Below are positions 39,828 to 58,149 of a stretch of 64,000 bases of DNA, piece after piece; position 1 is the first letter of the stretch, and each line of letters starts with the position of its first letter. The translations under genes and the position numbers were made by a program. Source of the DNA: Escherichia coli (GTDB lineage Bacteria; Pseudomonadota; Gammaproteobacteria; Enterobacterales; Enterobacteriaceae); the NCBI RefSeq assembly GCF_030013205.1, contig NZ_CP122648.1; one strand, given 5' to 3'. Under the pieces are notes generated by a model that saw only the letters and a list, made by a program, of their open reading frames with translations, had not been told where the DNA came from and searched no databases.

Positions 39828-41866
39828 TGTCAGGTAATCAGATGCCAGTTCTGACGCTGGACGTTAATGAAGAACACCTCAAACGGCTTGAGGCAATTTT
39901 TGAAAAGTATCGCAACGGGCTGATGATCGGCCCTGCCGGAACGCCGATGAAAATACCGGGGCAAAGTGGGCGCAGCGTGGGGGCAGGCTTACCCGTGGCG
40001 GCAAAATCTGGTCGGACAGGACCGGATGTATCCGGGAGAGTGAGGGACGAAAAAGGGCGCTTTGTCGGCAGCGGAAAAACAGCAGATTCGTTCGTAAGCA
40101 ACTATAAAGGTCGCGGCGAAACGATGTTTGATAAGTATCTCAGCGGGCTGGGGAAAAATGCCCAACAGACGCTGAAAACTTACAAGCAGATCAATTCTAC
40201 ACTACAGACGACCACTTCAAGATTAAACAACCTGTTTAAAACAACCGTATCGTGGGGAACAAAACTCTCGGTTATGGGCGTTGCCGGACCGTTTGGCTTT
40301 GGCATGATGTCCCGTAGTGTTGTAGAGAAACAGAAAAATGCAGATGAGCTGGTGGCAACGCCAGGAGAGTTAAAGGCGGCAGAAAGCACTTATTCGCCTT
40401 ATTTTTCCGGTGTTGGCAATGTGCTCAATACACTGGCAGCAGCACAAAATGATATATCGCATCCTGCCCGCGTCGGCCTGCTTAATCTGGGGCTAAATCC
40501 TGATAAAAACGCGACTGAAAACCTGCCTGTATTCCTGAAAAAGGTTGCAGAGCTGGCAAAGGAATATCAGGGAAGTGGTCTTACCCAGAGCATGCTCAGG
40601 GGAAGAGGGCTTGGATGGGTAAATTTTGGTCTTACTAACCAGTTAGTCAAATATCAGGACAAAATACCTGAACTCAACAAAGAGTTTTCGTTACGTGCAG
40701 CGCAGAATGATTCGTTACTGACCTCTGCACATACAAGTAAATATCAGAATATTACCAGTAACCTGGAAAAAAACTGGGATCGGCTTACCAGCGGATTTCA
40801 GGGAGCAATGGCGGGGAATGAAGACGCTTTAATCAGAATGTCTGATGGTGCCACGAATGCTGCCCTGAATTTCATGAATGGTGAGAACTTTAAAAGGATT
40901 CTGACGGATGTAGAAACGGGGCTGGATAAACTTGGTAAGTACGTAAATGGCCCGGATTTTAATAACGACCTGAACAATTTTGCCGAAAACGTTGCAAAGG
41001 TTGTTAAGGCACTTAGCGGGTTTGTTGGTTTTGCGGTTGAACATCCCTGGCTTTTTGGGGCCGCAGTACTTGCTGGACCATCGAGAGTTGGTGCTGTGGC
41101 AGCCACAACGACCGGAGTTGCCGCCCGTGTTGTTGGTGGAAGTCTTCTTGGGGCTACAGCCGGAACAGTAGCTGGATTGGCTATTCCTACAAATGACACA
41201 CCTACCACCAGTGAGGAAATGAAAGGGCTGGAGGGGCGTTTCAACTTTGATTATTTTAACGAAGTGCAGGAGTGGCAAAAAAACAATCCGGGTAAGGTCT
41301 GGCCTGGAGGATTGCAGGGATTTTCAAATCAAGTAAACAGATCTGCATATTTATCCAGAGGGATCAGGAATAACAATCCCGGAAATCTTAATTTCGCAGG
41401 ACAAAAAGGGGCTACCCTGGAATCGGGGCCAAATGCCCGTTTTGCCAGCTTCCCGACGATGCTGGAAGGCATTGCCGCCTTAGATCGGCAGGTAATGCTA
41501 TACCTGAAACGCGGCAAAAATACGATTGATCAGATTATTGATATTTATGCCCCTTCATCTGATGGAAATAACACATCGTCCTATAAAAGCTATCTCTCTC
41601 AGTACACCGGATTAGGTGTTAAGGAGAAAATCGATGGTTCTAATTTTGAGGTCATGAAAAAGCTAATTCAGGGCATTATTAACCATGAAAATGGTGCTGC
41701 CGCTAAAGCTGTAAGTGTTGAAGATGTGATCCGGGCGCTGGCTATGAATCGTGGGATTGTCCCTGCAGCAGGAAACAATGATCAGAACGTTAAGTTGGAA
41801 ATTGTTCGGAACGCTGGTGCCGATTACTTCGCGCAACTAATTGGTGCTCAACGGTTCCTGGGATGA
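39827..41866 (+). CDS. tape-measure-like protein (679 aa)
   Basis: It has a long helical N-terminal part, then a Gly/Ala-rich hydrophobic segment (FGAAVLAGPSRVGAVAATTTGVAARVVGGSLLGATAGTVAGLAIP). The C-terminal globular domain carries RNNNPGNLNF. The gene follows the chaperone-like gene. Confidence 0.55.
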   Translation: MSGNQMPVLTLDVNEEHLKRLEAIFEKYRNGLMIGPAGTPMKIPGQSGRSVGAGLPVAAKSGRTGPDVSGRVRDEKGRFVGSGKTADSFVSNYKGRGETMFDKYLSGLGKNAQQTLKTYKQINSTLQTTTSRLNNLFKTTVSWGTKLSVMGVAGPFGFGMMSRSVVEKQKNADELVATPGELKAAESTYSPYFSGVGNVLNTLAAAQNDISHPARVGLLNLGLNPDKNATENLPVFLKKVAELAKEYQGSGLTQSMLRGRGLGWVNFGLTNQLVKYQDKIPELNKEFSLRAAQNDSLLTSAHTSKYQNITSNLEKNWDRLTSGFQGAMAGNEDALIRMSDGATNAALNFMNGENFKRILTDVETGLDKLGKYVNGPDFNNDLNNFAENVAKVVKALSGFVGFAVEHPWLFGAAVLAGPSRVGAVAATTTGVAARVVGGSLLGATAGTVAGLAIPTNDTPTTSEEMKGLEGRFNFDYFNEVQEWQKNNPGKVWPGGLQGFSNQVNRSAYLSRGIRNNNPGNLNFAGQKGATLESGPNARFASFPTMLEGIAALDRQVMLYLKRGKNTIDQIIDIYAPSSDGNNTSSYKSYLSQYTGLGVKEKIDGSNFEVMKKLIQGIINHENGAAAKAVSVEDVIRALAMNRGIVPAAGNNDQNVKLEIVRNAGADYFAQLIGAQRFLG

Positions 41867-41917
41867 TTTAAATACACGCGCTTTCCGGCGCATTAATACA
41901 GTCTGAGGGGAAGTGTC

Positions 41918-42445
41918 ATGTTTATGAGCAAGGCAGAATATGCCAAACACAAAGGCGTAAGCCGCCAGACAGTTTACGACTGGATCGAGAAAGGCGAAGT
42001 GATCATGTCTGGCAAAAAAATTGATGTGGAAGCGACAGAGCAGCGGAACAGCCCACCAGCACAGGGAAAAGATACCGTTTCTGAAATGTGGCCAGAGAGA
42101 ACGCTGGAAATGACGTGGGGCGAGTTCTGGAAAGCAGTTAAGGCCAGAGACGGTAAAATCCCTGCACCAGTAACGGACAATGACATACAGCAGCGTGTAC
42201 AGGATGCAGCCGGGGAACTATGCTGTGAAGTGCAATTTCTTGATGATGGTGCTATCTGCCTTGAGGATTATGCTGGGCAATATTACTTTGAGCAGTATGA
42301 TTTTCGGGAAAATGCCAGGCTGGCAATTCGTATGCTGCGTTGTGAGCTCTGCTATGTTGCAGGTGATTGTCCCGATGAGCTGGATAACTGGAGTGAAGCC
42401 GGACTAAACGCCCTGGCTGAGTGGGAAAAATCAGGCCATCAATGA
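41918..42445 (+). CDS. Nu1/TerS-like winged-HTH protein (175 aa)
   Basis: The N-terminus MSKAEYAKHKGVSRQTVYDWIEKGEV resembles lambda Nu1-type small terminase HTH domains. A repeat field lies immediately downstream. Confidence 0.5.
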   Translation: MFMSKAEYAKHKGVSRQTVYDWIEKGEVIMSGKKIDVEATEQRNSPPAQGKDTVSEMWPERTLEMTWGEFWKAVKARDGKIPAPVTDNDIQQRVQDAAGELCCEVQFLDDGAICLEDYAGQYYFEQYDFRENARLAIRMLRCELCYVAGDCPDELDNWSEAGLNALAEWEKSGHQ

Positions 42446-42450
42446 CCTCA

Positions 42451-42732
42451 AAAAGTGTCAAGTTGAGCAGCTTGCCAGGTTGACACTTTACACTCTGAAC
42501 GCGAAAAAGTGTCAACCTCGCTGTAAGCCCCGCCATTACTGGCCTTTCGCCAGATTTACCACGTCAAAAAGCCGAAAAAATCGCGAAAAGTGTCAAGTTG
42601 CCATGCTTAGAAATGCTAAGGTTTGATAAGGTTTTTCGCGAAAAAGTGTCAAGTGTGTCAACCTGCGATGTTAAGATTTGTTAAGGTCTTAAGCCGGAAA
42701 GTGTCAACCAGCCCCCTAAGATTTCCTAAGGT
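42451..42732. repeat. repeat field: at least 6 copies of AAAGTGTCAA(C/G) interleaved with TAAG..TAAGGT repeats (candidate cosB/pac-like or second origin)
   Basis: AAAGTGTCAA copies lie at 42451-62, 42479-91 (inverted), 42503-17, 42585-600, 42641-62 (double) and 42686-700. Three carry the extended form CGCGAAAAAGTGTCAA. The second family reads CTTAGAAATGCTAAGGTTTGATAAGGT, GTTAAGATTTGTTAAGGT and CCTAAGATTTCCTAAGGT. Confidence 0.75.
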
Positions 42733-42739
42733 GTAAACC

Positions 42740-42919
42740 ATGACCATCACCGAAGCCGATTTGCTGGAGATGATCCGCAGCATTGCCGGAATCAAACAAC
42801 CAGCAAGCAAAATTAACAGGTGTTCAGCGCCTGTTTCCGTTGTGCTGCAGCAGGAACGCCACCAGCATGATGATGTGAGGCCGTATCAGTGGCGGAAACC
42901 GGACAGGCCGCGACGGTGA
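42740..42919 (+). CDS. possible small ORF (59 aa)
   Basis: Unlisted ORF MTITEADLLEMIRSIAGIKQPASKINRC.. It starts just after the repeat field. No motif and only a weak RBS, so it may be a gene remnant. Confidence 0.25.
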   Translation: MTITEADLLEMIRSIAGIKQPASKINRCSAPVSVVLQQERHQHDDVRPYQWRKPDRPRR

Positions 42920-43211
42920 GCGGAACGTTCGGTAAGGCTACAGCCAAGCCAAACATTAAGCCTACGGGTAACCCTTCGAAGGGGCTTTAAAGGGGAGATG
43001 ATTATCCTTACCAGTTGATAAACAAGCAAACCTCAAATTTGAGGTTTGTATCTGCCTGACTTATTTTTGTGCTAAGTTGTTGATATATCCGACGACACAA
43101 ATTTGCGTTCTGTGGCTGGTGGTGGCGAGTTACGACCGATCATTTCCTTCCTGGCAGGTTACATCCTGCTGCTCAACTACTACGGTAGCCACTACGATTA
43201 ACTACGCGATG

Positions 43212-43240
43212 CCGATATGGGGATTCCCATATCGGTTTAT
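43212..43240 (+). terminator. intrinsic terminator
   Basis: Perfect 10-bp stem CCGATATGGG/CCCATATCGG with loop GATT, followed by TTTAT. Confidence 0.6.
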
Positions 43241-43306
43241 CCGTGATCATCCACCAGCTTGATCACGGTTAACAGGGGATGTGTAATCCCCAAGCGAGTG
43301 ATAAAT

Positions 43307-43336
43307 GTGTATAGAAATGTGTATAGAATTTATTTT
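43307..43336 (+). repeat. arm-type repeat GTGTATAGAAATGTGTATAGAATTTATTTT (partner of 29271-29307)
   Basis: See the partner feature. It lies 50 bp left of the second att core. Confidence 0.6.
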
Positions 43337-43385
43337 AGAACTCGCGAATGCGCCTTTATTACTGGCCTTGTGGCTTGTTGTATTG

Positions 43386-43403
43386 TTCCCTTCGCCCGCT
43401 CCA
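43386..43403 (+). repeat. att core copy 2: TTCCCTTCGCCCGCTCCA (18-bp direct repeat of the glyU 3' end)
   Basis: Exact match to 29138-29155. Confidence 0.9.
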
Positions 43404-43900
43404 GAATCTCCCCAGGTGGAGAAGACTAAAAAAGTCTTCTCTGTCAGCAACTTAAACAGTTACCTATTTAATTTGCTTAGGAGTTCTACCATTGTGATCC
43501 GCCCTTAGTAACTGTCACGTTAAGTTACTCGGTGAGATGACAGTATAACCTAACGTTGGCGGCAGTTGCACCTCTCACACCGCGATAGCACAACGTGAAG
43601 ATAAAGCCCATCCTGGCATTGTAATGTCATCGACAGACTGAACACACGCATTTAAGCCCGATGTGCGGCCTTGTGGCTGCGTAAACAGGTTTATGGTGAT
43701 ATTGGTCCTTGCAAACCATATGCAAGCTCTATCAGCGTTTCAGCCACGCTCCCAACGGGTACACGGTTATCCTGATAAGGTGTGATCTTTCTGACAATCT
43801 GATGAAGTCGCTACGCTCCCGCTTGTTGCTGTATCACCAACGGGGCTTTATGGTTTCTATTGTCTATAATAATCTCACAATTCCCCTGCATGAGGTTGAT

Positions 43901-44107
43901 ATGACTGTTAGCTACAAGATTACTTATGAGCATAGAGACGGTGATCAAATTAGAATGGAAGAGGTTTTATTCCATTCAGAGCATGAACCAACAAAAGATG
44001 AAATTCATGATGCAGTAAGAAAAGATACTGTGAGATTTAATTCTCCATCTAATGGAGTAACGGCTGTTTCAGGGTTTAAAGTGATTTCGGTTGTCCCTGT
44101 TCCATGA
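43901..44107 (+). CDS. hypothetical protein (68 aa)
   Basis: The internal ATG of ORF 43709..44107 is preceded by GAGG (tgaggttgatATG). Product begins MTVSYKITYEHRDGDQIRMEE... Confidence 0.45.
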   Translation: MTVSYKITYEHRDGDQIRMEEVLFHSEHEPTKDEIHDAVRKDTVRFNSPSNGVTAVSGFKVISVVPVP

Positions 44108-44140
44108 ATGGTTATAGAAGGGGCTGGAAGCCCCTAATTA

Positions 44141-44461
44141 TTACTTCTTAATATCGCCAGTGCATTGATATTCGATAGTCACAAGTGTTTGCATACAACC
44201 AGATGAAGAAGGTTGTGAACATTGAGAAGTGAATCCACCAAAAGGCTCGGCTCCTGAATATCCCCAAGCGGCACAACGCGCTTTGGCTGCATTCATGCCT
44301 TGTTGTGGATCTACAACAGGACTTTCAAACATACCGTAAGAATAACTCATCCTAACTGTGCCGTCTGATTTGCTTCCACCAGTTGGAACGAGTTGTTTTT
44401 TTGTTGCACATCCAGAAATAATCAATGTTGAAGCAAGTAACAGCATTAAACTTTTGCGCAT
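44141..44461 (-). CDS. small lipoprotein (YecR-like by recollection)
   Basis: 106 aa. The signal peptide and lipobox read MRKSLMLLLASTLIISGC. The mature part contains four Cys. Confidence 0.65.
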   Translation of the reverse strand: MRKSLMLLLASTLIISGCATKKQLVPTGGSKSDGTVRMSYSYGMFESPVVDPQQGMNAAKARCAAWGYSGAEPFGGFTSQCSQPSSSGCMQTLVTIEYQCTGDIKK

Positions 44462-44605
44462 GTAAATAATCCCAAGAGATAATGGTTATGTATTGATTTA
44501 AAGCGTTTTTAGATTAATGCATTAACTTAGCAAAATTAAGTCTTTTCTGATTGTTTGCAGAGTAAAAATGAGTTGCTTTCGAAATTATTTCGGATGTTTA
44601 TTGTA

Positions 44606-44773
44606 TTACGGTTTTTCAAACCGTCTAACTATTGTCGCTATTGAATGGGCAATAATAGCAAGAGGATTCATTTCGTCATTGGAGGCAACAAAAAGTCGGT
44701 AACTGATAGCTACAACGAATGAAACAATAACGAGAAAGCGGATAGTGCTAAGATGTTTTGAAGATAAATGCAT
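44606..44773 (-). CDS. possible 55-aa hydrophobic peptide
   Basis: Unlisted ORF MHLSSKHLSTIRFLVIVSFVVAISYRLFVASNDEMNPLAIIAHSIATIVRRFEKP. No clear RBS. Confidence 0.25.
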   Translation of the reverse strand: MHLSSKHLSTIRFLVIVSFVVAISYRLFVASNDEMNPLAIIAHSIATIVRRFEKP

Positions 44774-45113
44774 AACGCCCCCTAAATGAATGTGAGGGGG
44801 ATTAAATCATGCAAATTTGTTGTGTGCAATACTGGTAATTTATCCTAATAGTCTACTATTCACCTCAATCTACGTCAACCAATATTTGATGTAGATTTGA
44901 TTTTCTTTTAAAAACAATATGTTGCAATTTGTTGGGTTTTGGGGTTAGGTTGTTTTTTGGACGTTTCCATCAAGTGTAAAGATACGTTTAGCCTTCATAG
45001 TGAGTTCAGTTACTGTCTTTTTCTCTGAAATCGGCGCATACGTGATCATCGCTTAACGAGAAGATCAGCGCCGTCAGGTCCATGCAGCGACAATTCTGAA
45101 ATATCAGGAGGCA

Positions 45114-45665
45114 TTACGCTTCCTGCTCTTTCTTGATACGTTGCACCGTCTGTGTGCTGACACTGAAATCTTTTGCTACGCTCCGAATTGATCCACCATT
45201 CGCGAGAGCGGCAACAATTCCCGCTCGATCAATTGCTTTTCCATTACCACGTTTTGCTATACGCCCAGCTGCCTTAGCTGCGGCGATCCCTTCACGTTGA
45301 CGCTCAAGCATCATTTCACGTTCCATTTGTGCCACTGCTGCAAGCACTGTGAGCATCATATTCCCTGCGGGAGAGTTCTTCCCTGTCTTAAAGTCTTCTT
45401 TATGGAAATGCACAGACACGCCGCGCTCTGTTAATTGCTCAACCGTTGCCAGAAGGTCGGCTGTATTACGGCAAAGGCGATCAATACTGTGAACATGCAA
45501 AACATCACCTTCCCGCACATAGTTCATCATTGCCTCAAACTGTGGGCGCTGGGTATTCTTGCCTGACGCTTTATCTTCAAAGACTTTATCAAGAGCTACT
45601 CCAGCTAATTGACGGTCTGTGTTTTGTTGCACAGTCGATACCCTAATGTATCCAATATTAGCCAT
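45114..45665 (-). CDS. serine recombinase (resolvase/invertase family)
   Basis: 183 aa. The N-terminus MANIGYIRVSTVQQNTDRQ contains the catalytic Ser. It also has the DRLCRN motif and a C-terminal HTH (GGSIRSVAKDFSVSTQTVQRI). Confidence 0.9.
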   Translation of the reverse strand: MANIGYIRVSTVQQNTDRQLAGVALDKVFEDKASGKNTQRPQFEAMMNYVREGDVLHVHSIDRLCRNTADLLATVEQLTERGVSVHFHKEDFKTGKNSPAGNMMLTVLAAVAQMEREMMLERQREGIAAAKAAGRIAKRGNGKAIDRAGIVAALANGGSIRSVAKDFSVSTQTVQRIKKEQEA

Positions 45666-45680
45666 TTTCTTTATTCCTTC

Positions 45681-45798
45681 TGTGTTGATTTGTGTGTAGT
45701 GATTATTGATCGTGTTGATTAGGTGTGTAAAGGACTTTTTTCACTACGAAATTCGAAGGTTTTTAGTGTGGTGATTTAGCCTGCTTTATCACTACACG
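45681..45798. promoter_or_regulatory. res-like nested imperfect inverted repeats upstream of the recombinase gene
   Basis: TGTGTAGTGAT (45693-703) pairs with ATCACTACACG (45788-98). TCACTACGAA (45741-50) pairs with TAGTGTGGTGA (45765-75). There are also direct repeats TGTGTTGATT / CGTGTTGATT. Confidence 0.45.
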
Positions 45799-46166
45799 TC
45801 TTGCATGAGAATCATGTAGTTACGTTTTGGTAAAATTAGCAAGCTATTAAATAGTGTGTTTATTTTGAAAAAATAATTTTTTGTTGCATTAAAGAAAACT
45901 TGTTCGACAAATAATAGATTGATTTTTAATCAATAATTTCTGATAGTGCTCTGTAAGCCGCATTACACAAGGCTTTGCGAAAGTGATGTAAAAGTGAAGA
46001 AAGTAAGAATTGCACTTTTAAGCTACTTTTCATTGAATTTTTAGTATGGAATTACACAGGGATTAATCATCAATTACATTGAATTTAAGCCTGTTTTAGA
46101 TGTTTAATTTTGGTAGCAAGAAACACTTTTAGAAGATCATTGCACAGATGTTATGTGATAAATGGA

Positions 46167-46325
46167 TGTAACGATGGGTTACATTCAGCTATCTGAAATA
46201 CTCTCTGTAAGAAATTTGGTAGTAACGATTCGTTACATAGACTAATTATTGAATGTAACGATATTACACATCGGTAGTAACGATACGTTACATCGGCAGA
46301 TGATTGGTTGTAACGAAAGGTTACA
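46167..46325. repeat. array of five phased 17-bp palindromes (T/A)GTAACGA-N3-(G/C)GTTACA
   Basis: Boxes: TGTAACGATGGGTTACA (46167-83), AGTAACGATTCGTTACA (46221-37), TGTAACGATATTACACA (46254-70), AGTAACGATACGTTACA (46276-92) and TGTAACGAAAGGTTACA (46309-25). Centre spacings are 54, 33, 22 and 33 bp. The T-type and A-type boxes alternate. Confidence 0.8.
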
Positions 46326-46414
46326 CAATAAGACTAACATCTATAATACTAATAATAAAACTAACTATTAAACTATATAATATAATTCTTTTTTATCTTT
46401 ATAAGAATAATTAT

Positions 46415-46775
46415 AGGGATACCCGTTAGGGAGTCTAACGACTATCCCTTAATCTATTGGCATTCGCCAGAACCTTGCACAAGTTAGAGTGTTAGTCGTT
46501 AGACTGCTTGTCATAACACATAGTTTTTGTTTGTTGATGTTAGTTAGTAGATCTATGTTCGCTTTCCGCTCACAACGAATATGTAATCTACTATGTGCAA
46601 ATAGCCTACGGCTTGCGTAAGGCTAAATAGTCTTGCGCTGTGCGCAGAACGATAATTAACTAACTACCATCTAACGATCATCAATCATCTAAAATAAATT
46701 TCTTGTGCAATGTTCTTGCGAATGCAATTAGGGTAGCGTTACCCCTTTGGGGATGCTAACGCATAACTATAGATC
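46415..46775. repeat. pair of ~75-bp imperfect inverted repeats flanking a ~200-bp segment
   Basis: The left arm (46415-46492) ends in ..TTGGCATTCGCCAGAACCTTGCACAAG. The right arm (46700-46775) has a reverse complement ending in ..ATTGCATTCGCAAGAACATTGCACAAG. Each arm also contains an internal GTTAG/CTAAC-type hairpin. Confidence 0.7.
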
Positions 46776-47206
46776 AACCATCAAACAGACAAAAAAGAAA
46801 AATATGGTTTAAAGATGTTAGGTAGTAGATGAGTTTCTACCGCTTAAATCAAGCCGTAGGCGAGCTAAACGTATATAAGGTAGGGAAACACTTAGCGGTA
46901 ATAGATTAGCTCGTTATAGAGATTCTGAGGAGCTTTACAGGTATTTTATAAGGTGTCTGAAATTAGATTTTATCTACCATCACCTTTTCATATACCTAAC
47001 AAATACAAAATAAGCACCTTAAATAAGCCTCTGGCGAGCTAAACGGTCATTACATAAGGGAATGTATTGTTTTTATCAAAACCTCGTTAGAACGCGTTTT
47101 AGAGCGTTATTAGACAATAATGAAGAATAGCACTACACAGGAGAGCACGAATTGCTAAGACAAATTATAAATTGCTGAAATAGATCGGATTTTTTGCAAA
47201 ATGGTA

Positions 47207-47235
47207 TTGACAAATGTCTCTTTCTGTGCAATAAT
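47207..47235 (+). promoter_or_regulatory. sigma70 promoter P1 (TTGACA-17-AATAAT with TGc extended -10)
   Basis: TTGACA at 47207-12, a 17-nt spacer ending in TGC, and AATAAT at 47230-35. It reads toward the 47358 operon. Confidence 0.65.
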
Positions 47236-47287
47236 AGGTATTAGAGGGACAGAAAACATTCTTATCCTCTAAGTAATTAAACCAATG

Positions 47288-47331
47288 CACCGCACTTTGA
47301 GCCGTCAGGCTGCAAGGTGTCTTTTTCTTTT
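47288..47331 (+). terminator. leader terminator/attenuator between P1 and the first gene
   Basis: CACCGCA..GCCgtcaGGC..TGCAAGGTG composite stem followed by TCTTTTTCTTTT. It lies 26 nt before the ATG at 47358. Confidence 0.5.
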
Positions 47332-47357
47332 AACCAAATAGAATAGGAGGTTAATTA

Positions 47358-47540
47358 ATGAAATATTTCACTCCACAGGATGTAGTAGAAGCCTGGAAAC
47401 GTGGTGAGATCAATCGTTTTAAAGTAAGGATGAACAGGAACACAGCGCGACGCTGTGGTTATCCAGAGCGTGAAAAATGTTTTGACGATGCACTAAAAAT
47501 TATTGATGAACTGCGTAAGGCAGAAGTAGAGAAAGAATAA
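47358..47540 (+). CDS. hypothetical protein (60 aa)
   Basis: Strong RBS (AGGAGGttaattaATG). No motif. Confidence 0.6.
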   Translation: MKYFTPQDVVEAWKRGEINRFKVRMNRNTARRCGYPEREKCFDDALKIIDELRKAEVEKE

Positions 47541-47561
47541 TAACAGGAGAAGGAGAAAACT

Positions 47562-47729
47562 ATGAGCGAAACTAAGAAACCAATTCCGCGCACTTACCTA
47601 CACGTTGACCCTGAAATCTTCAAGGTTTTATTTGCTGAAGCCAAGAAAAGGCAAATTATGGTCAGTGATTTGATGTTAGAAATCATTACTGAAGCAGCAG
47701 AGAACATCAAACAAAAAAAGGGTAAGTGA
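47562..47729 (+). CDS. ribbon-helix-helix (CopG-like) protein, 55 aa
   Basis: Unlisted ORF MSETKKPIPRTYLHVDPEIFKVLFAEAKKRQIMVSDLMLEIITEAAENIKQKKGK with RBS GGAGAAGGAG. It shows a beta-strand then helix-helix pattern. Confidence 0.6.
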   Translation: MSETKKPIPRTYLHVDPEIFKVLFAEAKKRQIMVSDLMLEIITEAAENIKQKKGK

Positions 47730-47782
47730 TCCTCATTCACTTTAGTAGCGCATTAAGCGTGATTTATAAGGAGATAATTCTA

Positions 47783-48463
47783 ATGTCTAAAATTAAATTG
47801 ATTCGTGAAAAATACCAGTATGTTGATAAACAAACAGGAGAAATTAAAGACAGAACTTTGAATATACCACACTACTTTTGTGAGATTGAATTCATCTACT
47901 CCTCAAATATTGAGGATGGAAAAGCGAAGTTTAGTGCAGAAATGCAAAAATTATATTGCTATGTTTCAGATTGGGAGAAATCAGGGGGGATATGTTTTGA
48001 AACACAAACGAAGTTAAGTAAAGTTTGTGGCTGTAGCCGTAAGACAGTTAATGAATTGATTGGTCTTATGATTAAAATCGGTCTTTTAGAAGAGGTCGGA
48101 GAACGAATCCCAAAACGTCCTTTAAAATTACGTGCGCTACTTCTCACAGATGCACATATTACTCCCCCTGGAGAATCATCACTACCTGATCCTTCTGAGA
48201 AAGAAGACGAATCTAATGAAATATTGAATGTTTCCGAAATCATCCTTGAAGAAGAAACACAAGAGCCAGAGTTCCCTGAGCGGCCCGAAATTTTTACTTG
48301 GCTTCTTTCCCTTGATAAGAAGAAACCACCGCACGAAGAAACAGAAGATTTTGTAAAACGTGCATTAGATTCAAAGAATATCTATCTTGAGAAACAGGCT
48401 TTTCACGATCTGATAATATCTCTAAGAGAAAAAAGTGAAATATACGATTCAATACCATTCTAA
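47783..48463 (+). CDS. winged-HTH protein (226 aa), candidate replication initiator/regulator with acidic C-terminal half
   Basis: The internal ATG of ORF 47726..48463 follows AAGGAG. The HTH-like segment is TQTKLSKVCGCSRKTVNELIGLMIKIGLLEE. Confidence 0.5.
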   Translation: MSKIKLIREKYQYVDKQTGEIKDRTLNIPHYFCEIEFIYSSNIEDGKAKFSAEMQKLYCYVSDWEKSGGICFETQTKLSKVCGCSRKTVNELIGLMIKIGLLEEVGERIPKRPLKLRALLLTDAHITPPGESSLPDPSEKEDESNEILNVSEIILEEETQEPEFPERPEIFTWLLSLDKKKPPHEETEDFVKRALDSKNIYLEKQAFHDLIISLREKSEIYDSIPF

Positions 48464-48472
48464 GGAGAATAA

Positions 48473-48742
48473 ATGACTTATAACATCACTATAGGAAACA
48501 AAACTATTGAAATAACTGAAAGCGGATACAACATTTTAAAAGCTATTTTGGAAATAGAGTTCTCACCGCCGACAGTGGTTAGCTTTTGTAGTTTAGGCGG
48601 CTACAGCGCACAACACGTGAATCATTGGTTAAACCATTTTACATCGTTCGGTGTGCTGGATTATGAAGGGATTAACAGCACTACATTTCGTCTTTTGAAA
48701 TTAAACAAAGATTTTGAATTGTTTATCACAAACAATCAATAA
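48473..48742 (+). CDS. hypothetical protein (89 aa), possible wHTH
   Basis: RBS AAGGAG upstream. No firm motif. Confidence 0.5.
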   Translation: MTYNITIGNKTIEITESGYNILKAILEIEFSPPTVVSFCSLGGYSAQHVNHWLNHFTSFGVLDYEGINSTTFRLLKLNKDFELFITNNQ

Positions 48743-48838
48743 CAACAGATCGGGCAATACATATGGCAAATGCATTTATGGCGATATTCATTGTAACAAT
48801 GGTATCAAGTTTTTATAATCCACATAAAAAGAGGGAAA

Positions 48839-49222
48839 ATGGGAAGAAAGAAAAAGAACAACTTAAAACGTATTGAAAAAAACAGTAACTTCAATTCAAC
48901 AAGACAACGTCCACCGACACACACCAATAACGAAATTCCAGGGGAAGAGATAATATTTATTCTTGAAACAGAATCCCCTGAATTAAGCGATGAAGAATTA
49001 GAAATAATCCAGTCAATGCCAGGCGTTTACTTTCGCCCAAGAACAAGAAAACAAACTATCATTTCTGATGGCACTCTGAAACGTTGGCAGCTTTTAGGGT
49101 TTAGCTCCTATCATCATTTTTTGGGATTTAACGCTTTCAATAATTGTGTAGGTGGTGCATCGGAAGTCGATCTGATGGCTCATTTAGAAGATACATTAGC
49201 TTCTAACAAACGTTCTAACTAA
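48839..49222 (+). CDS. hypothetical basic/acidic protein (127 aa)
   Basis: RBS GAGGGAAA upstream. The N-terminus is Lys/Arg-rich. Confidence 0.5.
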   Translation: MGRKKKNNLKRIEKNSNFNSTRQRPPTHTNNEIPGEEIIFILETESPELSDEELEIIQSMPGVYFRPRTRKQTIISDGTLKRWQLLGFSSYHHFLGFNAFNNCVGGASEVDLMAHLEDTLASNKRSN

Positions 49223-49237
49223 TAAAATGATGGGAGT

Positions 49238-49510
49238 ATGTATAAGCGCCCAATGAAAATAATCGAAAAAGGAAAAATAATGATTAACTATCAACTATTA
49301 GAAACAACATTTTTTAAAGAAGCAAAACAACTTGCAGAAGTGTTTATTTCACTGGCTGAACGAGCAAAAGAAGAAAATGATTTTGCCTTGCTTGATGATG
49401 TGCTGGATGACATTGCAACCTATCGTATACCGCTACAGATTGCACTAAACAAGGCTAAACAGATTCAGCAAGAGATGGAATCAGCAGATCAAGGAGAGAT
49501 TGCACAATGA
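49238..49510 (+). CDS. hypothetical helical protein (start uncertain: 49238, 49253 or 49280)
   Basis: ORF in the track. Its stop overlaps the next start (ATGA). Confidence 0.45.
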   Translation: MYKRPMKIIEKGKIMINYQLLETTFFKEAKQLAEVFISLAERAKEENDFALLDDVLDDIATYRIPLQIALNKAKQIQQEMESADQGEIAQ

Positions 49511-49815
49511 CAGACAACATTCTGGAAGTTATGGACACTCTTTCGGATCGGATGATCGCCCTACAGACACGTATCAATCAAGCCTATTCAGATTTATGCG
49601 ATTACACGCTCTCTCAATGCGTTAGTAGCTTAATGAAGGTGAATGTAAGCCTTGACGATTTCATCTCTCTGGTGAGCGATTTAGAGCTATCTAAGGACGA
49701 TGTCAGGCTGTGTACTCAAACCATCACAGACACCGCCAGCACGTTAAAGGCTGCAAGTGAAGAGATTCAGCAATTAGTAGATGATTTAGCAAAAAGTGCT
49801 ATTTTCTCCAAATGA
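49507..49815 (+). CDS. hypothetical helical protein (102 aa)
   Basis: Translationally coupled to the previous ORF. Confidence 0.5.
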   Translation: MTDNILEVMDTLSDRMIALQTRINQAYSDLCDYTLSQCVSSLMKVNVSLDDFISLVSDLELSKDDVRLCTQTITDTASTLKAASEEIQQLVDDLAKSAIFSK

Positions 49816-49828
49816 TAATGAAAATCAT

Positions 49829-49857
49829 TTGCATTTATAACGATTTCATTATATAAT
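49829..49857 (+). promoter_or_regulatory. near-consensus sigma70 promoter P2 (TTGCAT-17-TATAAT)
   Basis: TTGCAT at 49829-34, a 17-nt spacer, and TATAAT at 49852-57. The initial transcribed sequence ATTAGGGGTAGATAAAAA resembles that of P1 (ATTAGAGGGACAGAAAA). Confidence 0.7.
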
Positions 49858-50087
49858 GATATTAGGGGTAGATAAAAAGGTTTTGACTGGTGTTAATCCT
49901 TCTACTGTCATAAATCCCTGCATATGGAAGGTGATAGCCTCAAGGGTTGAGTGGCATTAACCTCTAACAAATATTACCTTCCATCTCTCAAGAAGTTTTA
50001 GAATAATCATAACTCCCTCTTTGATTGTTGATTGTTTCTACGTTGTGTTGATGAATGTTGTTAGGCATTGTGCTTAATTTTGATAAA

Positions 50088-50130
50088 AGCGGGTAGGTGT
50101 TATCTCCTTGCCCTTCCCGCTCTTATTTTT
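50088..50130 (+). terminator. candidate intrinsic terminator ~265 nt downstream of P2
   Basis: AGCGGG (50088-93) pairs with CCCGCT (50116-21), with an inner AGG/CCT pairing. It is followed by CTTATTTTT. Confidence 0.45.
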
Positions 50131-50559
50131 CATCTATGCTTATCCTAAAGCTCCTTATTTTGTCCGAAAACATTAAAGAGCCTTACACTGATAGTTATAT
50201 TTTATAACTATTTACTAACATCATTAAACTCTTATTTAATGACAGAAGTTAGTAACAGAATAATCTATTAAGTTGTTGTCAAAAAACTATCATCTGCATA
50301 GCGTTAGCCGCAAGTAGAGAGAGTTTAGTTAAGAATGGTGCAATAAACTTTGGAAATATTGATAGCAAAACTAGTTTTATAGAATGCGGATCTATAATCT
50401 TTGGTTGTAAAAACGATTTTCTGAAACGGTAGATTACTGTTGGTGTAGTTAATCCTTATTAAAAATTTAATCTGTGAGTAGATTGGAATAGTGATTCCTT
50501 AAAATCTGACTGGTGCATCCACACCATGAAAGATAGCAGTTGGCCACCGCGCCCCGAAT

Positions 50560-50615
50560 AGATATTCCTGATTGATTCCGCATGTTTTCCTAAGAGCATG
50601 TTTTCAGGAATATCT
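50560..50615 (+). repeat. perfect 12-bp inverted repeat with 32-nt spacer
   Basis: AGATATTCCTGA (50560-71) and TCAGGAATATCT (50604-15). Confidence 0.8.
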
Positions 50616-50719
50616 GTTCACCCTTTAAACCTATCTTTAAGCATGTTTAATAAGCATTCTTAGAGATACGTTTAAAACCTCCTCAAGGTTTTACTTATCG
50701 CTGTGTATTGCCCGACACG

Positions 50720-50779: not shown

Positions 50780-50807
50780 ATTCCAGCATAATGGAATCGT
50801 TATATAA

Positions 50808-51407: not shown

Positions 51408-52436
51408 ATGATTATCGGAAATGAAGTGGTTGATCTTGCTCCACTGTTCGAATTAAACGACTCACGCAATTACCTACTGTCTACTCTGGATTTTACTGAT
51501 CCTGTGCCTGTAGAAAGTCACAAAGTGGCTGTTTCCCAGCTTATCGAGAGCAATGAATCTCTGTTCAACCATCCTACAAGCCGTTTTAGCTCTGAGCATA
51601 ACGTTACTAAGCGTGAGAACGGGGAAGAATGGCTGATTGAAATCCCTTACTTCCTGCGTGAAGACCTGATCAAACCGCAGGACGTGCAAGGCAAACGCAA
51701 AGCCGGAAGCTCTATTGAAGAAACACTGCCGGATCTGTATGCGGAATATATCGCTACACACAATGTTGCATTCCAGCGCACTAAAGAAAGCATCCTCGCG
51801 GCTTCTCTGTTCTCTGGCAAGACACATACCCCGAAAACTGACGATGTTCTGATCGACTACAGCACTCTGTTCGGTGTGTCTCCAATGACTGCAACCGTTG
51901 ACGCATCCAGCACCAACACAATGACCGTATTCAAGCAATTTGATCAGATGCATACGGATATGATTGCTAAGGCACAAAGCCAGGCTGCAACCATTGAGCG
52001 TGTTGTTGTGTTCTGTAAACCTGCGGCATTCAACGCTATTCGTTACAGCGTTGGCATGGTTAATGCGTTCCAGTATGCAAGCCCTGTAGACGATGCAAAC
52101 GTGGTGTTTAATGTGCGTTCTCTGCTGCCTGGTGTAACTACTTTCACCATTCCAGGAACTAACATTGACCTGATCAAAGTGACTGATCCGCTGCTGCTGG
52201 CACATATGACCGCTGACGCTGTAGCTATTCCTAAACTTGCTAAGGGGGCAGGTGTTTACCAAGCTATTTTTGGTGCGCCTTCCAGTTCATTCGATCTGCT
52301 GTCTCAAGGCGCTAAAGAGTATTACAGCTATGCTTTCGAATCGAATCGCGGCGACGCAGTGCACGTAGTGACCGAGAATAGCTCGCTTGTGGTTAACCAC
52401 GGTGTTGGCTTCTCTGTGCAGATCACAGTAGCGTAA
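51408..52436 (+). CDS. major capsid protein-like (gpE-like size class, 342 aa)
   Basis: 342 aa, which is my recollection of the lambda gpE length class. It follows the decoration-like gene, has a strong RBS (AAGGAAtaaataataATG) and codon usage suggesting high expression. The family is not verifiable here. Confidence 0.45.
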   Translation: MIIGNEVVDLAPLFELNDSRNYLLSTLDFTDPVPVESHKVAVSQLIESNESLFNHPTSRFSSEHNVTKRENGEEWLIEIPYFLREDLIKPQDVQGKRKAGSSIEETLPDLYAEYIATHNVAFQRTKESILAASLFSGKTHTPKTDDVLIDYSTLFGVSPMTATVDASSTNTMTVFKQFDQMHTDMIAKAQSQAATIERVVVFCKPAAFNAIRYSVGMVNAFQYASPVDDANVVFNVRSLLPGVTTFTIPGTNIDLIKVTDPLLLAHMTADAVAIPKLAKGAGVYQAIFGAPSSSFDLLSQGAKEYYSYAFESNRGDAVHVVTENSSLVVNHGVGFSVQITVA

Positions 52437-56050: not shown

Positions 56051-56728
56051 ATGGCAATGGGTCCGTTAACCATTGGTCGCCCGACTGAGGCGAAAATCAA
56101 CAGCACAAGCAACGATAGCAACGGTAGAACAACCAAAGGGGGTAACGGCTTTGCGATCATTACCTCTAATCTCGGCAGTGGTGCAAATGCTGCTTACAAT
56201 GACTACCAGGCATTATCATTTGATAGCGTGGAATCGACGAAAGTTAGCAGAAATGCGGACGTTACAAGCTATGCCGTCGAATCAGGATCAGAAGTTAGTG
56301 ATCATGTTCAAATACGGAATAACAAGTTCACATTACAAGGGCGTATCTCTGAAACCGTATTGAAGCTCAATCCCGATATGATTAAGAATGCGGGAATTAA
56401 CGGCAATCGACGTATGCTTATGCTTGAATACCTAAATCAGTTGATGGACAGTCGCCAACCTTTCCTACTTGTCACTGAGTTAAAAAATTATGACAACGTT
56501 GTGTTAGTTGGCATGTCTTACGAAGAAGAAGCAAGCGAAAGCCTATTGTTTACTCTTGATTTTGAGCAAATCCGTCTTGTCTCTAAAGCAACTACAAGCG
56601 CAATTGCGGTAAAAACAGCACCAAATAAATCTGTAGGAGGTCAGGTTAAAATGCAGGTAAATACAACAGAACAGAAAAATCAAAAAAGCCCAGGGCAAGA
56701 CGTTGTAACGCCAGTATTTAAACAATAG
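56051..56728 (+). CDS. hypothetical phage-structural-like protein (225 aa) downstream of the tape-measure-like gene
   Basis: ORF in the track with a beta-rich composition. The function is inferred only from its position after the tape-measure-like gene. Confidence 0.4.
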   Translation: MAMGPLTIGRPTEAKINSTSNDSNGRTTKGGNGFAIITSNLGSGANAAYNDYQALSFDSVESTKVSRNADVTSYAVESGSEVSDHVQIRNNKFTLQGRISETVLKLNPDMIKNAGINGNRRMLMLEYLNQLMDSRQPFLLVTELKNYDNVVLVGMSYEEEASESLLFTLDFEQIRLVSKATTSAIAVKTAPNKSVGGQVKMQVNTTEQKNQKSPGQDVVTPVFKQ

Positions 56729-56821: not shown

Positions 56822-58042
56822 TTACGCCTTAAAATCAATATTTAATTCATATCTTACTAATTCTACATATTCAGCTAATTCTGGAATGCTTGCCCCTTGT
56901 GAGTAGGTGCGAAAGGCTTCTGTTTTGGCTTTTTGCTCAGTGTGGCCCGTAATACTGCCGATCCTGGTCTCGCTAACTCCGGCACGATCAAGACAAGTGA
57001 TAAACATCCCGCGCAAGCTGTGAAAGCATTGTCTATCTGTAGCGATTGGCAAGACGCTACGACGTAAACGTGAGAATGCTTGAGAATAGAACGGGCCTTT
57101 CTTGCCGTCGATTCTTTTTACTTTGTTCGAGTGAGGGAACAAATATTCACCATAATTATGATTTAAATATTCATCGACAATAATCGATAGTCTCGAATGT
57201 ATCGGAACGTGTCTGATCCCTGCTTTAGTCTTACTCTTGCTGATATAAAAACAGCGTATTCCTTCCACAGTTACAACCTCTGACTTTTTCAGGCTTGCCA
57301 GTTCGTCTAATCTGCATCCTGAAAACAAGCCCATTAAAATAATATTTCTGATCTCCGGCTCCGCTGCATCAAGTAGCTTTTGCATTTGTTCAGGTGTAAA
57401 CGGTTGATAACTCTCGATTGTGCGACGTGCTTCGAGGTTATGACCGTGAAAAGGGTTACTGTCTGGTATTCCGTCATAACGGCGTTTAGCAAATTCATAG
57501 AGCGATCCTAAGCATGTAAGCCAGTTTTGACGAGATTGATCGGCTGCTCCTCGTTGCTTCTGGTCATCTAAGAATACTGTTACAAGCCGTCTGCCTATTT
57601 TCTCAATATGAATATCATCTTTCTGAATGCTTTGTAAAAATAGCTCAACGGCCCTTGCTGATTTCTGTAGTGTTGAGTATGAACGACGCTCTCTGTAGCA
57701 TTCGGCGTATTCGTCACGTATTAAGCATAGGGAAGGCGATGCATAACCGCGTTTTACGGCTCTTTGCGTGTTTTTATTGGCCCTTGCCTCTGAATGTAAG
57801 AATTCAATAGCTTTTTGTAACCTCCTTTCGGGGTTATCAGGATTATGTTTCCGCTTTAGTTCCTCCCATTCTAATAACAGATGGTTTCTGAATCTTCTCG
57901 CCTCATTCAGATCTCGTGTAGATGTGCTTTTTCTCCACAACTTGTAAGGGTAAAGATGGCGTAAGTATTTAGGAACAAAAATCTGAAACATCCAGATCCC
58001 ATCTTTTCTCTTAAATAAGTATGCTTGGCTCTTGATCGACAC
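56822..58042 (-). CDS. int: tyrosine recombinase/integrase of Island 2 (406 aa)
   Basis: Catalytic signature present: GCRLDEL (Arg), HSLRGMF (His-x-x-Arg), ITGH, RTYSQG (Tyr). It starts 86 bp from att core copy 3 and reads into the island. Confidence 0.85.
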   Translation of the reverse strand: MSIKSQAYLFKRKDGIWMFQIFVPKYLRHLYPYKLWRKSTSTRDLNEARRFRNHLLLEWEELKRKHNPDNPERRLQKAIEFLHSEARANKNTQRAVKRGYASPSLCLIRDEYAECYRERRSYSTLQKSARAVELFLQSIQKDDIHIEKIGRRLVTVFLDDQKQRGAADQSRQNWLTCLGSLYEFAKRRYDGIPDSNPFHGHNLEARRTIESYQPFTPEQMQKLLDAAEPEIRNIILMGLFSGCRLDELASLKKSEVVTVEGIRCFYISKSKTKAGIRHVPIHSRLSIIVDEYLNHNYGEYLFPHSNKVKRIDGKKGPFYSQAFSRLRRSVLPIATDRQCFHSLRGMFITCLDRAGVSETRIGSITGHTEQKAKTEAFRTYSQGASIPELAEYVELVRYELNIDFKA

Positions 58043-58127: not shown

Positions 58128-58149
58128 TCGATTCCCTTCGCCCGCTCCA
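58128..58149 (+). repeat. att core copy 3: TCGATTCCCTTCGCCCGCTCCA (22-bp direct repeat of the glyU 3' end)
   Basis: Exact match to 29134-29155. It is preceded by GGGTTTCC, a degenerate continuation of the T-arm. Confidence 0.9.

What the first reader, a model, noticed from the sequence alone, without database searches (positions are those of the whole stretch)
46160..46775. Dense field of TAACG-containing sites: five helically phased, alternating 17-bp palindromes followed by further (G/T)(C/T)TAACGA copies.
The five palindromes (46167-46325) have centres spaced 54, 33, 22 and 33 bp apart, roughly multiples of 11. They alternate between a TGTAACGA-type (boxes 1, 3, 5) and a GGTAGTAACGAT(T/A)CGTTACAT-type (boxes 2, 4). 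The same half-site recurs downstream. AGTCTAACGACTA occurs at 46431-43 and inverted at 46491-503, TCTAACGAT at about 46668, and GCGTTA/TAACGC inside the right inverted repeat. A GTAAC-N11-GTTAC palindrome also sits near the island's left end (about 43507-43530). This looks like an iteron origin or a partition/centromere-like array read by one of the adjacent RHH/wHTH proteins (47562-48463). Either reading implies an extrachromosomal replicating phase for the element.
Basis: seen in the sequence. Interest (0 to 1): 0.6.

Follow-up and report, generated by a model that had tools for sequence, protein, structure and literature searches.

The report
Replication-origin repeats of a phage satellite
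The five repeated palindromes are most likely the binding sites of a replication origin in a 14.7-kb E. coli island that looks like a parasite of large lytic phages, and some of those phages carry a nuclease built from the same DNA-binding domain, apparently to cut this site.

Summary
Five 17-bp TGTAAC-N5-GTTACA boxes lie at 46167-46325 with centres 54, 33, 22 and 33 bp apart. They are far above chance. They are followed by the least stable DNA duplex of the whole window.

In 26 E. coli relatives the same position holds one of five interchangeable palindrome arrays (A to E). The array next to the AT tract matches the N-terminal winged-helix type of the downstream 226-aa protein (47783-48463) in 25 of 26 loci. 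It does not track the RHH protein or the adjacent serine recombinase.

That N-terminal domain models as a RepA_N-type initiator fold; the Vibrio PLE satellite initiator is among the best matches. All variants of the protein end in an SSB-like D-x-IPF tip.

The island (43404-58149) has tRNA-Gly att repeats and an integrase. It also has homologues of the head and tail proteins of phAPEC8-like phages.

Four such phages encode chimeric T5orf172 nucleases whose first domain is the A, C or E initiator domain. They resemble the ICP1 nuclease Odn that cuts the PLE origin.

Best reading: this is an iteron origin of a PLE-like satellite. The downstream TAACGA copies, the RHH protein and partition are not part of it. 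Nothing has been tested experimentally.

The parts
46167..46325 (.). Array of five 17-bp palindromic iterons (type A, TGTAAC-N5-GTTACA). Centres are 54, 33, 22 and 33 bp apart. Box 3 has its right arm displaced by 2 bp.
   Evidence: Spacing is conserved in relatives.
46326..46416 (.). AT-rich tract directly after box 5; candidate DNA-unwinding element.
   Evidence: The least stable 80-bp duplex of the 64-kb window starts at 46335: nearest-neighbour dG -75.4 against -82.7 for the next, 89% AT. Every array type in relatives is followed by such a tract, 69-88% AT.
46406..46458 (.). Imperfect palindrome (24-nt arms, 75% complementary) at the far edge of the AT tract. Its role is unknown, and its inner arms are not conserved in relatives.
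   Evidence: Inverted repeat I2. The relatives are compared.
47783..48463 (+). Candidate initiator, 226 aa. Parts: N-terminal winged-helix DNA-binding domain (about residues 1-125, specificity type A); disordered acidic linker (133-165); three-helix C-terminal domain (167-217); flexible tip ...EIYDSIPF.
47562..47729 (+).
   Evidence: Its type does not track the array type. An identical protein is encoded in phage inny next to the chimeric nuclease.
47358..47540 (+). Conserved 60-aa first gene of the operon; function unknown.
48473..48742 (+). 89-aa protein whose type changes together with the C-terminal domain type of the initiator in the loci compared; possible partner.
   Evidence: only a few loci were compared.
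47207..47335 (+). Sigma-70-like promoter (TTGACA-17-AATAAT) followed by a leader with a terminator-like hairpin and a T run, upstream of the operon.
45114..45665 (-). Small serine recombinase (183 aa), divergent from the non-coding gap.
   Evidence: Pfam Resolvase. It is nearly the same protein in loci with different arrays, and L006 and L007 have no serine recombinase there (L007 has a tyrosine type). Relatives in other genera have a tyrosine-type recombinase instead.
43384..43403 (+). attL: a 20-nt copy of the 3' end of tRNA-Gly.
58130..58149 (+). attR: the second 20-nt copy of the tRNA-Gly 3' end.
56822..58042 (-). Tyrosine integrase next to attR.
51408..52436 (+). Major-capsid homologue (Pfam Phage_cap_E). 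It is 23% identical to the major head protein of phage inny.
52823..54646 (+). 607-aa homologue of inny_105, with a PHROG hit to tail length tape measure protein.
56051..56728 (+). Dit-like tail protein. It is 49% identical to inny_106 and 53% identical to proteins of 145-151 kb coliphages.

Best explanation
**What it is.** The five palindromes are the iterons of the replication origin of a 14.7-kb integrated phage satellite (43404-58149).

**How it would work.**
1. Dimers of the island's 226-aa initiator (47783-48463) bind the boxes through the N-terminal RepA_N-like winged-helix domain.
2. All centres lie at multiples of about 11 bp, so the dimers sit on one face of the helix and can form one nucleoprotein complex.
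3. That complex opens the adjacent 90-bp AT tract (46326-46416).
4. The flexible C-terminal part ends in an SSB-like D-x-IPF tip. It recruits replisome or primosome proteins of the host or of the helper phage that normally dock on the SSB tail.
5. Replication would start after infection by a phAPEC8-like (Stephanstirmvirinae) helper phage.

**The arms race.** Iteron array and initiator domain are exchanged together as a specificity cassette (types A to E). The likely pressure is phage-encoded chimeric nucleases that carry captured copies of these domains.

**Shown here:** the sites, their spacing and conservation, the co-variation with the initiator type, the fold, the tip motif and the phage chimeras.

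**Inferred:** binding, unwinding, recruitment, helper dependence and cleavage.
For: 1. **Architecture.** The boxes are far above chance. They abut the least stable duplex of the window.
2. **Co-variation.** Five array types occupy the same position in 26 E. coli loci. The array next to the final AT tract matches the initiator's N-terminal type in 23 of 26 loci by script, and in 25 of 26 by eye. The RHH type and the recombinase do not track the array.
3. **Other genera.** Relatives with a 50-60% identical domain keep a related GTAAC-N5-GGTAC array, spaced 65, 32 and 22 bp, followed by an AT tract.
5. **Tip motif.** 105 of 113 near-full-length family members end in PF, in tips such as EIYDSIPF, YEDFDIPF and EDDFDIPF, on several differing C-terminal regions. 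The E. coli SSB tip is DDDIPF (PMC5872125).
6. **Phage chimeras.** Phage inny gp184 consists of domain A (87% identical over 140 aa), then domain B, then a T5orf172/MUG113 nuclease domain. Phage muut has E + B + nuclease. Two further proteins, one on a 150-kb contig, have C + B + nuclease. The inny genome has no A to E array of its own. This parallels ICP1 Odn, which cuts the PLE iterons (PMC8263062).
7. **Satellite context.** The island has att repeats, an integrase, and homologues of the head and tail proteins of phAPEC8-like phages.
Against: - There is no experimental evidence of binding or replication.
- Pfam RepA_N is not hit by sequence, and databases name the protein a transcriptional regulator.
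- The AT tract also contains promoter-like hexamers: GTTACA-16-TATAAT at 46320-46347. An operator role is therefore not excluded.
- No DnaA box was found.
- One locus (L125) pairs a C-type initiator with an E array.
- Many loci keep A boxes although their initiator is of another type.
- The 26 loci are related by descent. The co-variation therefore rests on about five independent pairings, not 26.
Confidence: 0.7

Rival explanations
1. The boxes are an operator array for a winged-helix transcription factor. The 226-aa protein would be a repressor or activator that binds the boxes and controls a promoter in the AT tract, such as 46320-46347 reading rightward. Array and regulator would then co-vary as an immunity cassette.
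For: - Co-variation of site and protein is equally expected for a repressor and its operator.
- A promoter-like site overlaps box 5.
- Databases annotate the family as transcriptional regulators.
Against: - No gene lies downstream of the AT tract for about 1 kb.
- The longest structural matches are RepA_N initiators and PLE RepA.
- The conserved SSB-like tip on several differing C-terminal regions points to DNA replication or repair partners.
- Each cassette carries its own 80-90 bp tract that is 69-88% AT.
Confidence: 0.15
2. The boxes are a res-type accessory site for the adjacent small serine recombinase (45114-45665). The 54 and 33 bp spacings would mimic sites I, II and III of Tn3 / gamma-delta res.
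For: - The recombinase is a 183-aa resolvase/invertase.
- The first two spacings (54, 33) resemble the 53 and 34 bp of gamma-delta res. That comparison is from memory.
Against: - Near-identical recombinases sit next to different arrays (window against L002).
- A arrays persist in L006, which has no serine recombinase there.
- Relatives in other genera have a tyrosine recombinase at that place and still keep the array.
- The boxes are 17 bp, shorter than the 25-34 bp resolvase sites. That size is from memory.
- The array starts 500 bp from the recombinase gene.
Confidence: 0.03
3. The boxes are a partition centromere bound by the small RHH protein (47562-47729), as in ParR/parC or ParG systems.
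For: - Repeated, helically phased sites next to a small protein of the RHH kind resemble type Ib and type II centromeres (from memory).
Against: - No ParA- or ParM-like NTPase appears among the genes scanned.
- The RHH type does not track the array type. 5 of 17 RHH1 loci lack two or more A boxes, and RHH2 goes with C, D and E arrays.
Confidence: 0.03
4. The boxes are inert remnants of an extinct element. Their conservation would then reflect only recent common descent.
For: - The island carries an IS insertion (54677-55950).
- The copy in strain K_EC180 has a frameshifted initiator gene.
- Many loci carry leftover partial arrays.
Against: - Arms and spacing are kept while box centres and flanks diverge.
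- A related array exists in three other genera whose proteins are only 50-60% identical.
- The initiator gene in this window is intact.
- Phages have recently captured the domain: 96% nucleotide identity over 626 bp.
Confidence: 0.05

Closest known systems
PLE satellite of Vibrio cholerae: RepA (RepA_N family), its iteron origin in a 2.7-kb non-coding region, and the ICP1 origin-directed nuclease Odn (PMC7145576, PMC8263062)
   Same: - An integrated satellite of a lytic myophage.
- A long non-coding region that holds semi-palindromic iterons.
- An initiator with an N-terminal winged-helix specificity domain and a separate C-terminal part. The PLE RepA N-terminal domain (4RO3) is among the best structural matches.
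- Initiator domain and origin co-vary between element variants.
- The phage carries a chimeric T5orf172 nuclease that bears the initiator's DNA-binding domain.
   Different: - The host and helper differ: Enterobacteriaceae and phAPEC8-like phages.
- There is no detectable sequence similarity to PLE RepA.
- There are five boxes of 17 bp rather than three of about 30 bp.
- At least five specificity types exist, and several loci carry tandem cassettes.
- The phage nucleases carry two DNA-binding domains in series.
- The initiator ends in an SSB-like IPF tip.
- Integration uses a tyrosine integrase at tRNA genes, not a large serine recombinase.
- The island has its own capsid and tail homologues.
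RepA_N plasmid initiators of Gram-positive bacteria (pSK41, pTZ2162; PDB 4PTA, 4PT7, 5KBJ)
   Same: - They are the best Foldseek matches over the whole N-terminal domain.
[quoted passage not shown]
   Different: - Pfam RepA_N is not hit by sequence.
- The C-terminal part is unrelated.
- The element is chromosomal, integrative and satellite-like rather than a plasmid.
Phage lambda origin and O protein (from memory)
   Same: - Four or five dyad-symmetric iterons are followed by an AT-rich tract and a palindrome.
- The initiator has an N-terminal specificity domain and a C-terminal partner domain.
- There are weak PHROG hits to 'replication initiation O-like' families.
   Different: - The iterons lie about 1.5 kb upstream of the initiator gene, not inside it.
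- No P-like helicase loader was recognised.
- Pfam Phage_rep_O is not hit.
Res sites of Tn3 / gamma-delta resolvases (from memory)
   Same: - A small serine recombinase lies next to the region.
- The first two spacings (54, 33) resemble the 53 and 34 bp of res.
   Different: - The array does not co-vary with the recombinase and persists without it.
- The sites are too short for resolvase dimers.

Membership tests
RepA_N-type iteron origin (as in PLE and Gram-positive plasmids) | The initiator's N-terminal domain has the RepA_N / DnaD-like winged-helix fold. | tested here: met
   - AlphaFold2 model: residues 1-125 have pLDDT of about 80-90.
- Foldseek top six hits are 4PQL, 4PT7 and 5KBJ, over 121-126 columns, E 4e-3 to 3e-2, TM about 0.5.
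RepA_N-type iteron origin (as in PLE and Gram-positive plasmids) | Sequence membership in Pfam RepA_N (PF06970). | tested here: not met
   Only HTH_36 (PF13730) is hit. It falls below the cut-off for type A and passes it for type E.
RepA_N-type iteron origin (as in PLE and Gram-positive plasmids) | Repeated semi-palindromic iterons next to an AT-rich unwinding region. | tested here: met
   All five array types are followed by AT tracts.
RepA_N-type iteron origin (as in PLE and Gram-positive plasmids) | Matched specificity between the initiator domain and the iterons. | tested here: met
   Five pairings. 23 of 26 loci match by script and 25 of 26 by eye. This is co-variation only; binding was not tested.
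RepA_N-type iteron origin (as in PLE and Gram-positive plasmids) | Initiator-dependent replication from the site. | not testable with these tools
   This needs a copy-number or minimal-replicon experiment.
Origin-directed nuclease (Odn-like) counter-defence | A phage protein that joins a T5orf172 / GIY-YIG-type nuclease domain to a DNA-binding domain homologous to the satellite initiator. | tested here: met
   - In inny gp184, residues 1-140 are 87% identical to the initiator.
- Its Pfam hits are MUG113 (E 2e-4, at the cut-off) and T5orf172 (E 0.025).
- Variants carry E or C domains.
- The nuclease domain is related to T5-type homing endonucleases and to nucleases of Vibrio phages.
Origin-directed nuclease (Odn-like) counter-defence | Iteron-dependent cleavage of the satellite origin. 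| not testable with these tools
   Indirect evidence only: the inny genome has no A to E arrays of its own.
Phage satellite | A discrete integrative element with att repeats and an integrase. | tested here: met
   20-nt tRNA-Gly repeats at 43384 and 58130, with the integrase at 56822-58042. Relatives sit at the tRNA-Thr gene next to proA or at tRNA-Gly.
Phage satellite | Induction, replication and packaging depend on a helper phage. | not testable with these tools
   There are only hints: homologues of helper head and tail proteins and the phage counter-nuclease.
Resolvase res site | The sites are bound by the adjacent serine recombinase and co-vary with it. | tested here: not met
   Near-identical recombinases sit next to different arrays. 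The array persists where there is no serine recombinase or a tyrosine type takes its place.
Plasmid partition centromere | A ParA- or ParM-type NTPase together with a centromere-binding protein that matches the repeats. | tested here: not met
   No NTPase family was found in the genes scanned. The RHH type does not track the array.
Lambda-type origin | Iterons lie inside an O-family initiator gene (Pfam Phage_rep_O). | tested here: not met
   The array lies 1.5 kb upstream of the gene. Only weak PHROG O-like hits were found, E 1.7e-4 to 1.7e-3.

The most novel reading that the evidence does not exclude
The array is the origin of a widespread, so far undescribed family of PLE-like satellites of phAPEC8-like lytic phages in Enterobacteriaceae. 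Matches to its non-coding region occur in 743 of 5,426 complete E. coli genomes.

- Iteron and initiator-domain cassettes (at least five types, sometimes stacked in tandem) diversify under attack from phage nucleases. Those nucleases repeatedly capture the initiator domains.
- The initiator recruits the replication machinery by mimicking the SSB C-terminal tip.
Probability: 0.5. Interest if true: 0.85.

Novelty: new variant of a known kind. Interest (0 to 1): 0.78.

Why it matters
- It would give a second, independent example, in E. coli, of the arms race known so far only from Vibrio cholerae PLE and phage ICP1. In that arms race a phage turns the satellite's own origin-binding domain into a nuclease.
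- The system is easy to test in E. coli. It offers five natural specificity pairs for studying how DNA-binding specificity is exchanged.
- An initiator that ends in an SSB-like tip suggests a simple way of bringing a replisome to an origin without a helicase or primase of its own.
- phAPEC8-like phages are candidates for therapy and biocontrol. An island present in about one in seven complete E. coli genomes that may interfere with them has practical weight.

Tried and rejected
- **Rfam.** A scan of 42500-64000 at E up to 1 found nothing.
- **Similarity of the non-coding gap.** blastn against the phage collection found nothing. Against plasmids it found two records.
- **A-type arrays in viral contigs.** A pattern scan gave 103 loci. 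Only a few (L094, L098, L117, L119) are this same element; the rest are unrelated GTAAC-N5-GTTAC arrays.
- **Invertible segment.** I tested whether the 30-nt inverted repeat (46454-46483 / 46702-46731) next to the recombinase flanks an invertible segment. A query in the inverted configuration is matched over at least 80% of its length in 0 of 351 genomes.
- **Host-factor sites.** No DnaA box and one IHF-like site.
- **RHH autoregulation.** The promoter spacer at 47207-47235 does not co-vary cleanly with the RHH type.
- **Source of the IPF tip.** No SSB-like DxIPF tail exists among inny open reading frames, so the tip does not copy a phage protein.
- **Sequence search against solved structures.** A profile search gave only generic winged-helix matches.
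- **Res-site and partition readings.** Both were rejected, as set out under the rival explanations.
- **Literature.** Eight searches found no description of this E. coli family. The library is incomplete, so prior description cannot be excluded.

Full report
**Setting**

The window is E. coli chromosome: the xdh and yge genes, then tRNA-Gly at 29082-29155, then islands, then the ETT2 type III secretion genes.

The finding lies in a 1.7-kb gap without genes, 45666-47357. On its left is a small serine recombinase (45114-45665, minus strand). On its right is an operon of small genes that starts at 47358.

Twenty-nucleotide copies of the tRNA-Gly 3' end lie at 43384 and 58130. They bound a 14.7-kb element with a tyrosine integrase at its right end. 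A second island sits in tandem at 29156-43383. It has an integrase and a D5-type primase-helicase.

- Five 17-bp boxes lie at 46167-46325, with centres 54, 33, 22 and 33 bp apart.
- Four boxes are perfect GTAAC-N5-GTTAC. Box 3 has its right arm displaced by 2 bp.
- The core pattern gives 9 matches in 64 kb against 0.72 expected. Eight of the nine are here.
- Boxes 2+3 and 4+5 form a 44-nt duplication.
- The 90 bp after box 5 contain the least stable 80-bp duplex of the whole window: 89% AT, dG -75.4 against -82.7 for the runner-up.

**Relatives**

The non-coding region has matches in 743 of 5,426 complete E. coli genomes. None were found in the phage collection and two in plasmids.

I fetched 25 further E. 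coli loci.

At the position of the boxes they carry one of five palindrome arrays:

| Type | Repeat unit |
|---|---|
| A | TGTAAC-N5-GTTACA |
| B | TTTCCTA-N6-TAGGAAA |
| C | TAACAG-N4-CTGTTA |
| D | GGTAGGTCACTGTGAACTACC |
| E | CTATCAA-N3/4-TGATAC |

- Each array has sites about 22-23 bp or multiples of 11 bp apart. Each is followed by its own AT tract.
- Some loci stack several cassettes, for example L009 (A then D) and L008 (A, B, then C).

**Co-variation with the downstream protein**

The 226-aa protein (47783-48463) is modular. It has a variable N-terminal winged-helix domain, a conserved ALPLTDAHITPP junction, an acidic linker, and a C-terminal part of several differing types.

- Including the window's own locus, that makes 26 loci.
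- The array that abuts the final AT tract matches the N-terminal type in 23 of 26 loci by script.
- By eye it matches in 25 of 26. L013 has a degenerate B array and L016 a single C box. L125 is a true mismatch.
- The loci are related by descent, so the weight rests on five distinct pairings.
- The small RHH protein does not track the arrays. Type 1 occurs with A, C and D as the last array, and 5 of 17 type-1 loci lack two or more A boxes. Type 2 occurs with C, D and E.
- The serine recombinase is nearly the same next to different arrays. L006 and L007 have no serine recombinase there (L007 has a tyrosine type).
- Citrobacter, Enterobacter and Cronobacter have the same gene order and a gap of about 2 kb. 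Their initiator domains are 50-60% identical to type A, and they carry an array AAAGTAAC-GTTTT-GGTACTTT with spacing 65, 32 and 22 bp followed by an AT tract. The neighbouring recombinase there is a tyrosine type.
- Within E. coli, a diverged A array keeps the spacing without indels while the box centres change.

**What the protein looks like**

- Sequence searches give only HTH_36 and weak PHROG 'replication initiation' hits.
- An AlphaFold2 model has a confident N-terminal domain (residues 1-125), a disordered linker (133-165), a three-helix C-terminal domain, and a floppy tip.
- The top six Foldseek matches in the PDB, over 121-126 columns, are RepA_N plasmid initiators (4PQL, 4PT7, 5KBJ).
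- 105 of 113 near-full-length family members end in PF, within tips such as EIYDSIPF, TIYDSLPF, YEDFDIPF and EDDFDIPF. Relatives in other genera have FEDLPF, FDSIPF and similar tips.
- The tip of E. coli SSB, which docks many replication and repair proteins, is DDDIPF (PMC5872125). I read the tip as an SSB-tail mimic. This is an inference.

**The phage link**

- A tblastn of the initiator against 50,697 phage records hits one phage, Escherichia phage inny (147 kb, Justusliebigvirus, Stephanstirmvirinae).
- Its gene 184 encodes 367 aa. Residues 1-140 are 87% identical to the type A domain. A type B domain follows, and then a C-terminal MUG113/T5orf172 nuclease domain.
- Phage muut has E + B + nuclease. 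Two further proteins, one of them on a 150-kb contig, have C + B + nuclease.
- The nuclease domain is at least 95% identical only in four 146-151 kb coliphages. It is distantly related to T5-type homing endonucleases and to nucleases of Vibrio phages.
- Phage inny shares 626 bp at 96% identity with the island. That stretch spans the RHH gene and the start of the initiator gene.
- The inny genome has no A to E arrays of its own.
- The island's capsid, 607-aa and Dit-like proteins are homologues of three inny structural genes that lie close together. The Dit-like protein's best phage matches are 145-151 kb coliphages.
- This mirrors ICP1 Odn. Odn is a T5orf172 nuclease whose N-terminal domain copies PLE RepA, and it needs the PLE iterons to cut (PMC8263062). 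PLE also keeps its origin in a 2.7-kb non-coding region (PMC7145576).

**Interpretation**

The boxes are most likely the iterons of the satellite's origin. They would be read by the N-terminal domain of the 226-aa initiator, with the AT tract as the unwinding element. I put this at about 0.7.

The narrower claim, that the boxes are the cognate sites of that domain, I put at about 0.85.

An operator role for the same protein is the main rival (0.15). Readings as a res site, a partition site or inert remnants are unlikely.

**What is not part of it**

- The downstream TAACGA copies (46436, 46496, 46672) have no paired half-site. Elements of type B or C keep some of them, and other relatives have lost them.
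- The 30-nt inverted repeat at 46454 / 46702 is never found inverted in 351 genomes.
- The N11 palindrome at 43509 lies just inside attL and has a different geometry.

**Novelty**

An iteron origin is a known kind of feature. The closest known system is the PLE replication module with its phage counter-nuclease.

Several things differ here:
- the host and helper;
- the five swappable cassettes and their tandem stacking;
- the two-domain phage nucleases;
- the SSB-like tip.

Eight literature searches found no description of this E. coli family. The library is incomplete, so this is not proof of novelty.

Noticed in passing
L120:3001-4104 (phage inny MN850601.1, gene inny_184), with inny_185 upstream: A lytic 147-kb coliphage encodes a chimeric protein: satellite initiator domain A, then domain B, then a T5orf172/MUG113 nuclease domain. 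Next to it is an exact copy of the island's 55-aa RHH protein. Phage muut and two further proteins, one on a 150-kb contig, carry E or C as the first domain.
   Followed up: yes
window 47783-48463, and family members P0001-P0174: All types of the initiator end in D-x-(I/L)PF, although their C-terminal regions differ in sequence. The motif resembles the DDDIPF tip of E. coli SSB.
   Followed up: partly
window 46454-46483 and 46702-46731: A 30-nt inverted repeat (87% complementary, 218 nt apart) lies near a DNA invertase/resolvase gene. The inverted arrangement was found in none of 351 genomes, so it is not an evident switch.
   Followed up: yes
window 46417-47200; L002:12300-14200: The rest of the non-coding gap is full of short recurring motifs (TTGCACA/TGTGCAA, TGAGCGnnnAGCGAA, ATCTAACGAT) and small hairpins. 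It comes in two unrelated versions among relatives and is expanded to 2.3-2.9 kb in some. Its function is unknown. Rfam finds nothing.
   Followed up: partly
window 47207-47335: A strong sigma-70-like promoter (11 of 12 matches) is followed by a conserved leader with a terminator-like hairpin and a T run, just upstream of the first gene of the operon. This may be an attenuation or antitermination control point.
   Followed up: partly
window 48473-48742: The 89-aa protein after the initiator changes type together with the initiator's C-terminal domain type (three pairings seen). It may be a partner protein.
   Followed up: partly
window 49816-50807: A second gap of about 1 kb without genes lies inside the island. 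It holds the second least stable duplex of the window (at 50191). It was not analysed further.
   Followed up: no
window 29156-43383: A second island sits in tandem at the same tRNA-Gly. It has a tyrosine integrase (29281-30534) and a D5-type primase-helicase (34403-36208). Repeated AAAAAGTGTCAA motifs lie at 42446-42680 near its right end.
   Followed up: partly
window 54677-55950: An IS element (two transposase ORFs) is inserted between the 607-aa gene and the Dit-like tail gene of the island.
   Followed up: no
L008, L015, L130 (E. coli relatives): Some elements stack three or four different iteron cassettes in tandem (for example A, E remnants, B, then D) but encode a single initiator type. 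They could be relics of cassette swaps, or a way to use initiators supplied in trans.
   Followed up: partly
L125 (GCA_949768785.1): This is the one locus where the initiator type (C) does not match the main array (E, with a single C box upstream). The same genome holds a second element with matched D type (L124).
   Followed up: no
L007, L134-L136: The small recombinase to the left of the non-coding gap is a serine type in most E. coli loci. It is a tyrosine type of about 186-192 aa in L007 and in the Citrobacter, Enterobacter and Cronobacter relatives.
   Followed up: no
L001 (strain K_EC180), locus 22184-22863: A near-identical copy of the island has a frameshifted initiator gene, whereas the gene in this window is intact.
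   Followed up: no
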